From Candidatus Micrarchaeota archaeon (lineage in GTDB: Archaea; Micrarchaeota; Micrarchaeia; Micrarchaeales; Micrarchaeaceae), in contig JAJZZO010000001.1 of the NCBI GenBank assembly GCA_021797495.1, forward strand, positions 15,533 to 47,532: a stretch of DNA of 32,000 nucleotides, read 5' to 3'. Under the pieces are notes generated by a model. The model had not been told where the DNA came from. It worked only from the letters and a program-made list of their open reading frames with translations, and searched no databases. Shown here piece by piece: positions 19,618 through 21,090 of this stretch (its first letter is position 1; each line of letters opens with the position of its first letter). Position numbers and translations under genes: made by a program.

Positions 19618-20058
19618 ATGGCTATAAAATATTGGGAATTCGAAGACGCTCCGTTCAAAGAGAAGGTCAAAAATCCTAAAGTAGCCGAAATCGCACGCAT
19701 ATTCTTTGACAACGAAACGGAAGCATACCGCTTTGCCACTTTGCTGGGCTTGGCAAAGAAAAGCGGCTTAAGGCTGAAGGATGTCCCGGATAATATACCG
19801 ATAGCTACAGCGAAGAGATACCTTGACTATGCTGTCCAGATAGGTTTGCTAAAGCACGAAAATTCGGTATACGAGCTCACGGACAGGTATACAAAACCAT
19901 TGCGCAACATAGCAGCATACATAAAGGCGTGGATGGATTCCAATTCCGAAGAAGACCTCGCCATAGAGTTTGTAAATGCAAAACAGGAAAAGCAAAACAA
20001 GCGCGGCGGCAGGAATGCCAACGCAGACACGGATACGGGCCCGGCGGGAATATCATAG
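19618..20058 (+). CDS. Hypothetical protein, possible winged-helix DNA-binding fold
   Basis: 146-aa ORF with TATA-like sequences 15-35 nt upstream, so possibly leaderless. IATAKRYLDYAVQIGLLKHENSVYELTDRY resembles a recognition helix plus wing. The last ~7 codons overlap the antisense tRNA 3' exon and intron. Confidence 0.5.
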   Translation: MAIKYWEFEDAPFKEKVKNPKVAEIARIFFDNETEAYRFATLLGLAKKSGLRLKDVPDNIPIATAKRYLDYAVQIGLLKHENSVYELTDRYTKPLRNIAAYIKAWMDSNSEEDLAIEFVNAKQEKQNKRGGRNANADTDTGPAGIS

Positions 20059-20143
20059 GCTTAGCGATTGCCAATTCCATATTTTGAACCCGCGACCGTC
20101 AGCTTAGAAGGCTGCTGCTCTGTCCAAGCTGAGCTACGGGCCC
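20036..20143 (-). tRNA. tRNA-Arg (anticodon UCU) with a ~33-nt intron in the T-loop
   Basis: Minus strand reads GGGCCCG-TA-GCTC-AGCTTGGACA-GAGC-A-GCAGC-CTTCTAA-GCTGA-CGGTC-GCGGG-TTCAAA..[intron]..T-CCCGC-CGGGCCC-G. The 7-bp acceptor stem is perfect (20143-20137 with 20043-20037). The T stem GCGGG (20093-20089) pairs with CCCGC (20048-20044), but 40 nt lie between the arms instead of 7. No CCA is encoded. Confidence 0.85.
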
Positions 20144-20944
20144 TTAAATCCGTCGAATTAGATTGTGTACGCTAATATTAAAGAACCTTTTTGTATTGTC
20201 CGCAATCGCCACGGCGCAGCTCTCAAAATCCATACCTTTTGCTTTCGCTATGAGCATTACCGATTTGTCTATGTCATAAATATGCATGCCTGCAGTTGGA
20301 GAATCGGTTTCTGCCATTATGTTCGCTATCGGAAGCGCTGTAATCGCATCCATTCTTTTAGCGGAATGCATAGGCGGTATCGATACCATAAAACCAAGGC
20401 TTTCAACGCGTTTTGCCTGTTTGGCATTCCCTTCAAAAAAATGTATGTGCGCCTTTTTTATGCCTGTGTTTTCAAGTATGTCCAGAACGTCGTCAATCGC
20501 TTCGCGCGAATGCACGCTTACGGGTTTGTCGAGCTCTATTGCCAGTTCCACGAACCTCTTAAAAAGCTCTTTTTGCTTGTTCTTTTCGTTTTCGTCTTTT
20601 GCAAACGCATAATCAAGGCCTATTTCCCCTATGGCTTTCACGCTCTTGCTGTTGGCCTTTATCAGGTTTATATTATACTCTATTTCCTCCTTGTTTATCT
20701 TTGCGGCGTTTTCCGGGTGTATCCCCAACGCCGGAAATATCCCAGTCCTGTTGTTCAATCCCAATACGGACATGTTCGAGGCGGTATCAACGCCATTTAC
20801 AACCAGTGCTGTGACTCCGCGCGCCATCGCCGTGTCAAGCTCTTCATCGCTAAGCATATCTGCATGGCAGTGCGCATCTAGGAGCTCCAGCCTCTGCTTA
20901 TACTTCATCTCGTCTTTTTTGGTGCTTATCTGTGCGAACGCCAT
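20144..20944 (-). CDS. tatD: TatD-family metal-dependent hydrolase/DNase
   Basis: LLDAHCHADML, IGEIGLDY, VSVHSREA, HIHFFEGN and AETDSP are the TatD/amidohydrolase metal-ligand motifs. The start is ambiguous (TTG 20974, ATG 20944, ATG 20908). The stop TAA at 20144-20146 directly abuts tRNA nucleotide 1. Confidence 0.88.
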   Translation of the reverse strand: MAFAQISTKKDEMKYKQRLELLDAHCHADMLSDEELDTAMARGVTALVVNGVDTASNMSVLGLNNRTGIFPALGIHPENAAKINKEEIEYNINLIKANSKSVKAIGEIGLDYAFAKDENEKNKQKELFKRFVELAIELDKPVSVHSREAIDDVLDILENTGIKKAHIHFFEGNAKQAKRVESLGFMVSIPPMHSAKRMDAITALPIANIMAETDSPTAGMHIYDIDKSVMLIAKAKGMDFESCAVAIADNTKRFFNISVHNLIRRI

Positions 20945-21090
20945 GGTGCTAACCCCGCTACTATAATAAACCAAGATTACTATGTTAAAAAATACCCGGT
21001 TAAAGGCATAAATATATTTATCTCAAAATATTAATAATAAGTGTTCTGGTATGCATAACACAAACCGGGTTTTTCAAGAGAGGTCTAAAA

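What the first reader, a model, noticed from the sequence alone, without database searches (positions are those of the whole stretch)
20036..20146. tRNA-Arg(UCU) interrupted by a ~33-nt intron in the T-loop, abutting tatD and overlapping a convergent ORF
All tRNA elements are present and pair perfectly: a 7-bp acceptor stem, D arm, anticodon arm with loop CUUCUAA, and 5-bp T stem. However, the T stem arms are separated by 40 nt instead of a 7-nt loop (TTCAAA..T plus about 33 extra nt). This is a non-canonical intron position near 59/60, not the canonical 37/38.

Such introns require a splicing endonuclease with relaxed bulge-helix-bulge specificity. They are known mainly from Thermoproteales and ultrasmall (ARMAN-type) archaea.

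Two additional oddities:
- tRNA nucleotide 1 (20143) directly follows the tatD stop codon (20144-46), implying co-transcription or processing from the mRNA 3' end.
- The intron plus 3' exon are antisense to the last codons and stop of ORF 19618..20058.
Basis: partly seen in the sequence, partly recalled or inferred. Interest (0 to 1): 0.6.

Follow-up and report, generated by a model that had tools for sequence, protein, structure and literature searches.

The report
Arginine tRNA gene with T-loop intron
This is a working arginine tRNA gene of a tiny acid-mine archaeon (an ARMAN-2 relative) interrupted in its T-loop by a 33-base intron of a type, and at a position (59/60), already described and tested in vitro for this group, so it is real but ordinary for the lineage.

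Summary
Window 20143->20036 (minus strand) encodes tRNA-Arg(UCU): exon 1 of 61 nt, a 33-nt insert, exon 2 of 14 nt. Removing the insert between positions 59 and 60 gives a 75-nt cloverleaf that ARAGORN calls tRNA-Arg(tct). It is 74/75 identical to an intron-less orthologue in a related genus.

[quoted passage not shown] Of 28 orthologues read from about 40 related genomes, 23 carry an insert of 13-41 nt at the same site with the same motif and covarying intron pairs. Five have none and read UUCAAAU.

The genome (0.96 Mb, mine-drainage samples) encodes a 390-aa three-unit epsilon2 EndA (E 2e-170 to PDB 4fz2, ARMAN-2) with its published key residues kept, and RtcB. About 17 of 42 tRNA hits are interrupted; at least four others have a T-loop insert at or next to 59/60.

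Introns at 59/60 in ARMAN-2, and their cleavage by this enzyme, were published in 2011. This is a new member of a known kind.

The abutting tatD stop and the 23-nt antisense overlap with a conserved ORF are real and conserved in the genus. They look like genome compaction.

Splicing in vivo could not be shown. This scan has noted a T-loop intron in tRNA-Arg before, on other DNA.

The parts
20036..20143 (-). Whole tRNA-Arg(UCU) gene, 108 nt; no CCA encoded
   Evidence: Sequence; Rfam tRNA hit on the 5' part; ARAGORN calls tRNA-Arg(tct) after in-silico splicing
20083..20143 (-). Exon 1, tRNA positions 1-59 (61 nt, two extra D-loop bases)
20106..20108 (-). Anticodon UCU
20050..20082 (-). 33-nt intron between positions 59 and 60
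   Evidence: Only this cut gives the T-loop UUCAAAU seen in intron-less orthologues
20036..20049 (-). Exon 2, tRNA positions 60-73 (14 nt)
20085..20088 (-). 5' strand of the central BHB helix (U54 U55 C56 A57)
   Evidence: Pairs with intron nt 28-31; 3 of 4 pairs here, 4 of 4 in 19 of 22 distinct orthologous introns
20052..20055 (-). 3' strand of the central BHB helix (intron U28 G29 A30 U31; U31 faces U54 as a mismatch)
20082..20084 (-). 5' bulge A58 A59 | A(intron 1); predicted cut after A59
   Evidence: Bulge is AAN in all 22 distinct orthologous introns
20049..20051 (-). 3' bulge A32 U33 | U60; predicted cut before U60
   Evidence: Bulge is ANU in all 22
20061..20074 (-). Apical hairpin of the intron (UUGGC AAUC GCUAA)
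   Evidence: Both the MFE fold and the BHB-constrained fold contain it
20144..20974 (-). TatD-family hydrolase gene; stop TAA 20146-20144 directly precedes tRNA nt 1
   Evidence: Pfam TatD_DNase, E 1e-51; zero gap in all 8 same-genus loci read (this window's included) and in one other genus
20175..20182 (-). TTTAATAT, a TATA-like box at -39..-32 of tRNA nt 1, inside the tatD codons F-F-N-I; putative tRNA promoter (inferred)
   Evidence: Same distance as in many other tRNA genes of the genome; invariant in the genus while neighbouring synonymous sites vary
19618..20058 (+). Conserved 146-aa winged-helix-like protein gene; its last 7 codons and stop (GPAGIS*) are antisense to exon 2 and to intron nt 25-33

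Best explanation
Window 20143-20036 (minus strand) is the only tRNA-Arg(UCU) gene found in a roughly 1-Mb Micrarchaeales (ARMAN-2-like) genome. It carries a 33-nt archaeal BHB intron between T-loop positions 59 and 60.

Proposed pathway:
1. The pre-tRNA is transcribed, probably from a TATA-like box embedded in the 3' end of tatD (inferred).
2. T-loop bases 54-57 pair with intron bases 28-31. This sets two 3-nt bulges, AA|A and AU|U, on either side of a 4-position helix between the T stem and the intron hairpin (shown in sequence and by comparison with orthologues).
3. The genome's three-unit epsilon2 EndA homodimer cuts in both bulges (inferred from published in vitro work on the ARMAN-2 enzyme with another 59/60 intron).
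4. RtcB joins the exons (inferred; the gene is present).
5. End trimming and CCA addition complete a 75-nt tRNA that reads AGA.
For: - **Exons.** In-silico splicing gives a 75-nt cloverleaf that ARAGORN calls tRNA-Arg(tct). It is 74/75 identical to the intron-less orthologue L014, which scores 68.5 bits in Rfam against 31.4 bits for the interrupted gene.
- **Orthologues.** Of 28 orthologous genes, 23 carry an insert of 13-41 nt at the same site and 5 have none, with T-loop UUCAAAU.
- **Selection.** Exons are 68-75/75 identical to the window's, with compensatory stem changes, while intron sequences differ freely.
- **BHB pairing.** Among 22 distinct introns the central helix pairs 21, 20, 22 and 22 times. 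The first two intron-helix pairs pair 18/19 and 15/19 times with U-A, C-G, A-U and G-C variants. For pairs 56, 57 and the first intron-helix pair, a 1-nt shift drops pairing to 0-8 of 19-22.
- **Energy.** The BHB-constrained fold is -46.1 kcal/mol against an MFE of -49.2. In L013 the BHB fold is the MFE.
- **Enzymes.** EndA L001:1207-2376(-), 390 aa, matches PDB 4fz2 (ARMAN-2 epsilon2) at E 2e-170 over its full length. Y160, K161, K228, Y236, H251, R275, K282 and W384 are all conserved, by my own reading of that alignment (residue roles from PMC12397907). RtcB is present.
- **Need for the gene.** No other UCU tRNA was found. AGA makes up 19% of Arg codons.
- **Genome context.** The same genome has T-loop inserts at or next to 59/60 in Arg(CCU), Arg(UCG), Ala(GGC) and Leu(CAA).
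- **Precedent.** PMC3239211 reports 59/60 introns in ARMAN-2 and their cleavage by the epsilon2 enzyme.
Against: - No RNA evidence. The one run labelled RNA holds the same contigs as its DNA twin and shows no spliced joint.
- This copy is the only one of 22 distinct introns with a U.U at the first pair of the central helix.
- The unconstrained MFE prefers a slightly different register within the insert.
- The genome is 89% complete, so a second Arg(UCU) gene cannot be fully excluded.
Confidence: 0.9

Rival explanations
1. It is a decaying tRNA pseudogene with a junk insertion in the T-loop.
For: Default tRNA finders miss it or score it low. One U.U mismatch is unique to this copy.
Against: - It is the only UCU tRNA found, while AGA is 19% of Arg codons.
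- The exons are nearly invariant across genera, with compensatory changes.
- An insert at the same site with a conserved BHB is present in 23 of 28 orthologues.
Confidence: 0.03
2. The insert is spliced, but through a relaxed register with wider bulges (5 nt on the 5' side, 4 nt on the 3' side), as the BHB-constrained ViennaRNA fold suggests. Cutting would then be inexact or slow, making this copy a poor substrate.
For: The constrained fold places U4-G6 against C25-A27 and leaves A58 to A3 unpaired. The U54.U31 mismatch enlarges the 3' bulge.
Against: - Close relatives keep U2-A and A3-U pairs in the canonical register.
- The epsilon2 enzyme is reported to cut both strict and relaxed motifs correctly (PMC3239211).
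- Only cuts at 59/60 give the T-loop UUCAAAU of intron-less orthologues.
Confidence: 0.05
3. The insert is kept in the mature RNA as an expanded T-loop or extra arm.
For: No RNA data exclude it.
Against: - The insert's length and sequence vary freely (13-41 nt in this isoacceptor, roughly 80 nt in Arg(UCG)), while its ends keep the BHB.
- Intron-less orthologues exist.
- It would disrupt the T-loop, whose sequence is otherwise invariant in every orthologue read.
Confidence: 0.02

Closest known systems
[quoted passage not shown] 2011, PMC3239211)
   Same: Same lineage, same insertion site in the T-loop, same enzyme type (epsilon2 EndA, E 2e-170 to the crystallised protein). About 40% of tRNA genes are interrupted here, against 56% reported for ARMAN-2.
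   Different: A different isoacceptor (Arg UCU), a longer intron (33 nt), and a near-strict hBHBh' with one U.U rather than the hBH form tested in vitro. I could not check whether ARMAN-2's own Arg(UCU) intron was listed, because the supplementary table is not held.
Non-canonical BHB introns of Thermoproteales and other archaea with (alpha-beta)2 EndA (reviewed in PMC4033280)
   Same: Introns outside 37/38, recognised by structure alone. They co-occur with an EndA that carries a specificity loop.
   Different: The enzyme architecture differs (heterotetramer against three-unit homodimer), and so does the phylum.
Canonical archaeal tRNA intron at 37/38
   Same: Same 3-4-3 bulge-helix-bulge geometry and the same cut-and-ligate pathway (EndA, RtcB).
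   Different: The position differs. Here the central helix is built from T-loop bases 54-57 rather than anticodon-loop bases, so standard tRNA finders fail.

Membership tests
Archaeal BHB tRNA intron (non-canonical position 59/60) | Removing the insert restores a complete cloverleaf with a 7-nt T-loop | tested here: met
   ARAGORN calls a 75-nt tRNA-Arg(tct); 74/75 identical to an intron-less orthologue
Archaeal BHB tRNA intron (non-canonical position 59/60) | Two 3-nt bulges separated by a 4-bp helix, with the splice sites inside the bulges | tested here: met
   Bulges AA|A and AU|U; helix UUCA/UGAU with 3 of 4 pairs (U.U mismatch), so slightly relaxed; 4 of 4 pairs in 19 of 22 distinct orthologous introns
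Archaeal BHB tRNA intron (non-canonical position 59/60) | Structure conserved while the intron sequence varies; orthologues with and without the intron | tested here: met
   23 orthologues with the insert and 5 without; covarying intron-helix pairs
Archaeal BHB tRNA intron (non-canonical position 59/60) | A splicing endonuclease and an RNA ligase are encoded in the genome | tested here: met
   EndA; RtcB
Archaeal BHB tRNA intron (non-canonical position 59/60) | The intron is absent from the mature tRNA in vivo | tested here: inconclusive
   Only assembled contigs were available; the run labelled RNA duplicates a DNA run; no joint across 20050-20082 was seen
epsilon2-type (three-unit) EndA | A single polypeptide of about 390 aa with three units, aligned end to end with the ARMAN-2 enzyme | tested here: met
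   390 aa; residues 13-390 align with 13-387 of 4fz2 at E 2e-170; two tRNA_int_endo stretches plus N-terminal domain hits
epsilon2-type (three-unit) EndA | Catalytic Y236/H251/K282 and the ARMAN-specific loop residues Y160/K161 | tested here: met
   All conserved, by my own reading of the alignment; residue roles from PMC12397907
tRNA pseudogene | Broken stems, or a redundant intact copy elsewhere | tested here: not met
   The stems are intact except for a lineage-wide G27.A43; no other UCU tRNA in 42 Rfam hits or 38 ARAGORN calls
Split or permuted tRNA | Halves encoded apart or in reversed order | tested here: not met
   Both exons are collinear within 108 nt

The most novel reading that the evidence does not exclude
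In this genus the tRNA gene is locked into a three-way overlap that may constrain its intron. The conserved TatD C-terminal codons F-F-N-I (TTCTTTAATATT) would double as the tRNA's TATA box. The convergent winged-helix gene reads antisense through exon 2 and takes its stop codon (TAG, 20056-20058) from inside the intron. Clean loss of the intron would remove that stop and extend the protein by at least 23 residues through the antisense of the tRNA. The intron would then be kept partly by selection on a protein gene on the other strand.
Probability: 0.2. Interest if true: 0.35.

Novelty: new member of a known kind. Interest (0 to 1): 0.15.

Why it matters
It matters little beyond annotation. 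Standard tRNA finders miss this gene (ARAGORN finds nothing, Rfam barely passes its cut-off), so genomes of this group would appear to lack the only reader of AGA codons.

The set of 28 orthologues, with inserts of 0 to 41 nt at one site, is a clean natural series for studying how the epsilon2 endonuclease tolerates variation and how T-loop introns are gained, resized and lost.

The kind of intron, its position and its enzyme were all published in 2011-2012 for ARMAN-2.

Tried and rejected
- **ARAGORN.** The default run found no tRNA in the window. With intron search on the whole genome it also missed this gene and mislabelled several interrupted tRNAs.
- **RNA evidence.** One run labelled as transcriptomic (X9) held part of the stretch, but its contigs are identical to those of the DNA run X8 from the same sample. 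Contigs break inside exon 1, apparently because that sequence is shared with other tRNA-Arg genes in the samples. No joint skipping 20050-20082 was seen, so nothing can be said about expression or splicing.
- **Automated scan.** My own BHB scan followed by ARAGORN over all 42 Rfam hits recovered the 59/60 solution for this gene. It gave many ambiguous solutions for other genes, so intron positions elsewhere in the genome rest partly on reading by eye.
- **Literature.** The supplementary tRNA table of PMC3239211 is not held, so I could not check whether ARMAN-2's Arg(UCU) intron was listed.
- **Pseudogene, retained-insert and split-tRNA readings** were considered and rejected (see rivals and membership test).
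- **Co-transcription with tatD** was considered. It is not excluded, but it is not needed given the TATA-like box at the usual distance.

Full report
**Observation.** On the minus strand, window 20143 to 20036 reads as follows:
- acceptor GGGCCCG
- U A
- D arm GCUC, a 10-nt D-loop, GAGC
- A
- anticodon arm GCAGC, loop CUUCUAA, GCUGA
- variable loop CGGUC
- T stem 5' arm GCGGG
- 40 nt
- T stem 3' arm CCCGC
- acceptor CGGGCCC, then discriminator G

The 40 nt are UUCAAA, then 33 nt, then U. Rfam's tRNA model aligns only 20085-20143, at 31.4 bits against a cut-off of 29. ARAGORN finds nothing in the window. The 108 nt fold at -49.2 kcal/mol, z = -4.74, with no shuffle out of 200 folding as well.

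Pair 27:43 is G.A. That mismatch is shared by most of the orthologues, some intron-less ones included.

**The exons make a proper tRNA.** Cutting out 20082-20050 leaves 75 nt that ARAGORN calls tRNA-Arg(tct), with all four arms and a T-loop reading UUCAAAU. A search of 40 related genomes with the 108 nt found matches in 39. I parsed 28 orthologous Arg(UCU) genes from the 30 loci fetched.
- Five have no insert and read UUCAAAU between the same T-stem arms (L014, L025, L028, L029, L032).
- 23 carry an insert of 13 to 41 nt at exactly that place.
- The spliced window sequence is 74/75 identical to the intron-less L014. L014 scores 68.5 bits in Rfam, while interrupted orthologues score 32-33 bits.
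- The exons differ at few positions, several of them compensatory in the acceptor, anticodon and T stems. The inserts share little beyond their ends.

Moving both cuts one base either way would give UUCAAUU or UUCAAAA. Only 59/60 reproduces the intron-less T-loop.

**The junctions form a bulge-helix-bulge motif.** Numbering the intron 1-33:
- The T stem is the outer helix.
- A32 U33 | U60 is the 3' bulge.
- U54.U31, U55-A30, C56-G29 and A57-U28 make the central helix.
- A58 A59 | A1 is the 5' bulge.
- U2-A27, A3-U26 and G-C pairs lead into an apical hairpin (UUGGC/GCUAA).

The rule that cuts fall after the second base of each bulge is from my own knowledge of the motif. Applied here, it gives exactly 59/60.

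Across 22 distinct orthologous introns:
- The four central positions pair in 21, 20, 22 and 22 cases, with U55-A alternating with U55.G.
- The first two intron-helix pairs are kept in 18/19 and 15/19 cases, as U-A, C-G, A-U, U.G and as A-U, G-C, G.U.
- For pairs 56, 57 and the first intron-helix pair, sliding the partner by one base drops pairing to 0-8 of 19-22.
- The bulges are always AAN and ANU.

The window's copy is the only one with U.U at the first central pair. Folds constrained to the motif lie 0 to 3 kcal/mol above the MFE. In L013 the motif is the MFE itself.

**The enzymes are there.** The genome is 0.96 Mb in 20 contigs and 89% complete. It has one EndA gene, a 390-aa frame at L001:1207-2376(-), with two catalytic-domain stretches and N-terminal domain hits.
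- It aligns end to end with PDB 4fz2, the three-unit epsilon2 EndA of Candidatus Micrarchaeum acidiphilum ARMAN-2, at E 2e-170.
- By my own reading of that alignment, catalytic Y236, H251 and K282, bulge-binding K228, R275 and W384, and loop residues Y160 and K161 are all kept. The residue roles are from PMC12397907.
- RtcB is present.
- DNA identical or nearly identical to the window occurs in mine-drainage and mine-tailings metagenomes.

The organism is therefore a Micrarchaeales archaeon (lineage).

**The gene is needed.** No other UCU-anticodon tRNA turned up among 42 Rfam hits, 38 ARAGORN calls or the BLAST matches in the genome. AGA makes up 19% of arginine codons in long open frames, and AGG 51%. 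That a CCU anticodon reads only AGG is established knowledge of wobble pairing.

**Genome context.** About 17 of the 42 tRNA hits are interrupted.
- T-loop inserts at 59/60, with the same UUCA/UGAA or UUCG/CGAA helix, occur in Arg(CCU) (22 nt), Arg(UCG) (roughly 80 nt, with a 9-bp intron helix) and Ala(GGC) (16 nt). Leu(CAA) has one at or next to 59/60 (17 nt).
- D-loop inserts occur in Gln(CUG), Leu(UAA) and Ser(GCU).

**Neighbours.**
- *tatD.* The ORF upstream on the same strand is a TatD-family hydrolase (Pfam E 1e-51). Its stop TAA at 20146-20144 touches tRNA nt 1. The zero gap holds in all eight same-genus loci read (the window's included) and in one other genus. Elsewhere the gap runs from -10 to +18 nt, with one locus at more than 100 nt.
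- *Possible promoter.* Many tRNA genes of this genome carry a TTTATA-like box starting 32-41 nt upstream of nt 1. Here TTTAATAT sits at -39..-32 (20182-20175), inside the TatD codons F-F-N-I. These 12 nt are invariant in the genus, while nearby synonymous sites vary. In other genera TatD ends FF[YH]I-stop, encoded by TTTTTTTATATATGA or a similar T/A-rich run, at the same distance. An internal promoter is thus plausible but inferred. Co-transcription is not excluded.
- *Convergent ORF.* ORF 19618-20058 is a real, conserved 146-aa protein with weak winged-helix and Sso10a-like hits. Its conserved core ends at KRGGR. Its last residues GPAGIS are the antisense of tRNA nt 86-108, and its stop TAG (20056-20058) lies opposite intron nt 25-27. 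The overlap of 23-29 nt is kept in the genus and in L019. In L012 the homologue stops 6 nt before the tRNA.

**Comparison with what is known.** Fujishima et al. 2011 (PMC3239211) report the following for ARMAN-2:
- 43 tRNA genes, 56% of them disrupted
- introns at 59/60 in pre-tRNA-Cys(GCA) and pre-tRNA-Pro(GGG)
- correct in vitro cleavage of the 59/60 substrate by the epsilon2 enzyme

Later structures explain the enzyme's broad specificity (PMC3488258; PMC12397907). The review PMC4033280 places this among the known non-canonical introns. The present gene is another instance, in a relative and in another isoacceptor. I did not test that note.

**What is not shown.** Splicing in vivo is not shown. 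The only run labelled RNA is a duplicate of a DNA run, kept as contigs, and is uninformative.

**Verdict.** The gene is a new member of a known kind, and its interest is low.

Noticed in passing
window 20173-20184 (minus strand): The TatD C-terminal codons F-F-N-I (TTCTTTAATATT) sit at -41..-30 of the tRNA, where many of this genome's other tRNA genes have their TATA-like box. The 12 nt are invariant in 8 same-genus loci (this window's included), while nearby synonymous sites vary. In other genera TatD ends FF[YH]I-stop, encoded by TTTTTTTATATATGA or a similar T/A-rich run, 15-18 nt before the tRNA. These may be codons that double as a promoter.
   Followed up: partly
window 20036-20058 (plus strand): The conserved 146-aa winged-helix-like ORF ends in GPAGIS-stop, encoded antisense to tRNA exon 2, and takes its stop codon from the intron. 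This is conserved in the genus. A homologue in another genus stops 6 nt short of the tRNA.
   Followed up: partly
own genome C9:43010-45799 (minus strand), outside the window: RtcB lies in one 992-aa open frame. The Pfam match is split into positions 1-58 and 48-426, about 1.3 kb apart, which suggests an intein.
   Followed up: no
own genome C18:51790-51928 (minus strand), outside the window: tRNA-Trp(CCA) carries a 66-nt intron at the canonical site that contains UGAUGA and CUGA-like boxes. It resembles the C/D-box guide introns that I recall for tRNA-Trp in other archaea.
   Followed up: no
own genome C17:28110, C18:25989 and C4:56069, outside the window: tRNA-Gln(CUG), tRNA-Leu(UAA) and tRNA-Ser(GCU) carry inserts of roughly 24-31 nt in the D-loop. 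Rfam aligns only their 3' two-thirds.
   Followed up: partly
own genome C20:35-96, outside the window: A tRNA-Glu(CUC)-like gene near a contig start lacks an adjacent 5' acceptor strand. It may have an intron near position 7/8, be a split gene, or be an assembly edge.
   Followed up: no
own genome C7:18927-19083, outside the window: tRNA-Arg(UCG) has an intron of roughly 80 nt at 59/60 with a 9-bp intron helix. ARAGORN wrongly calls an uninterrupted 76-nt tRNA there.
   Followed up: yes
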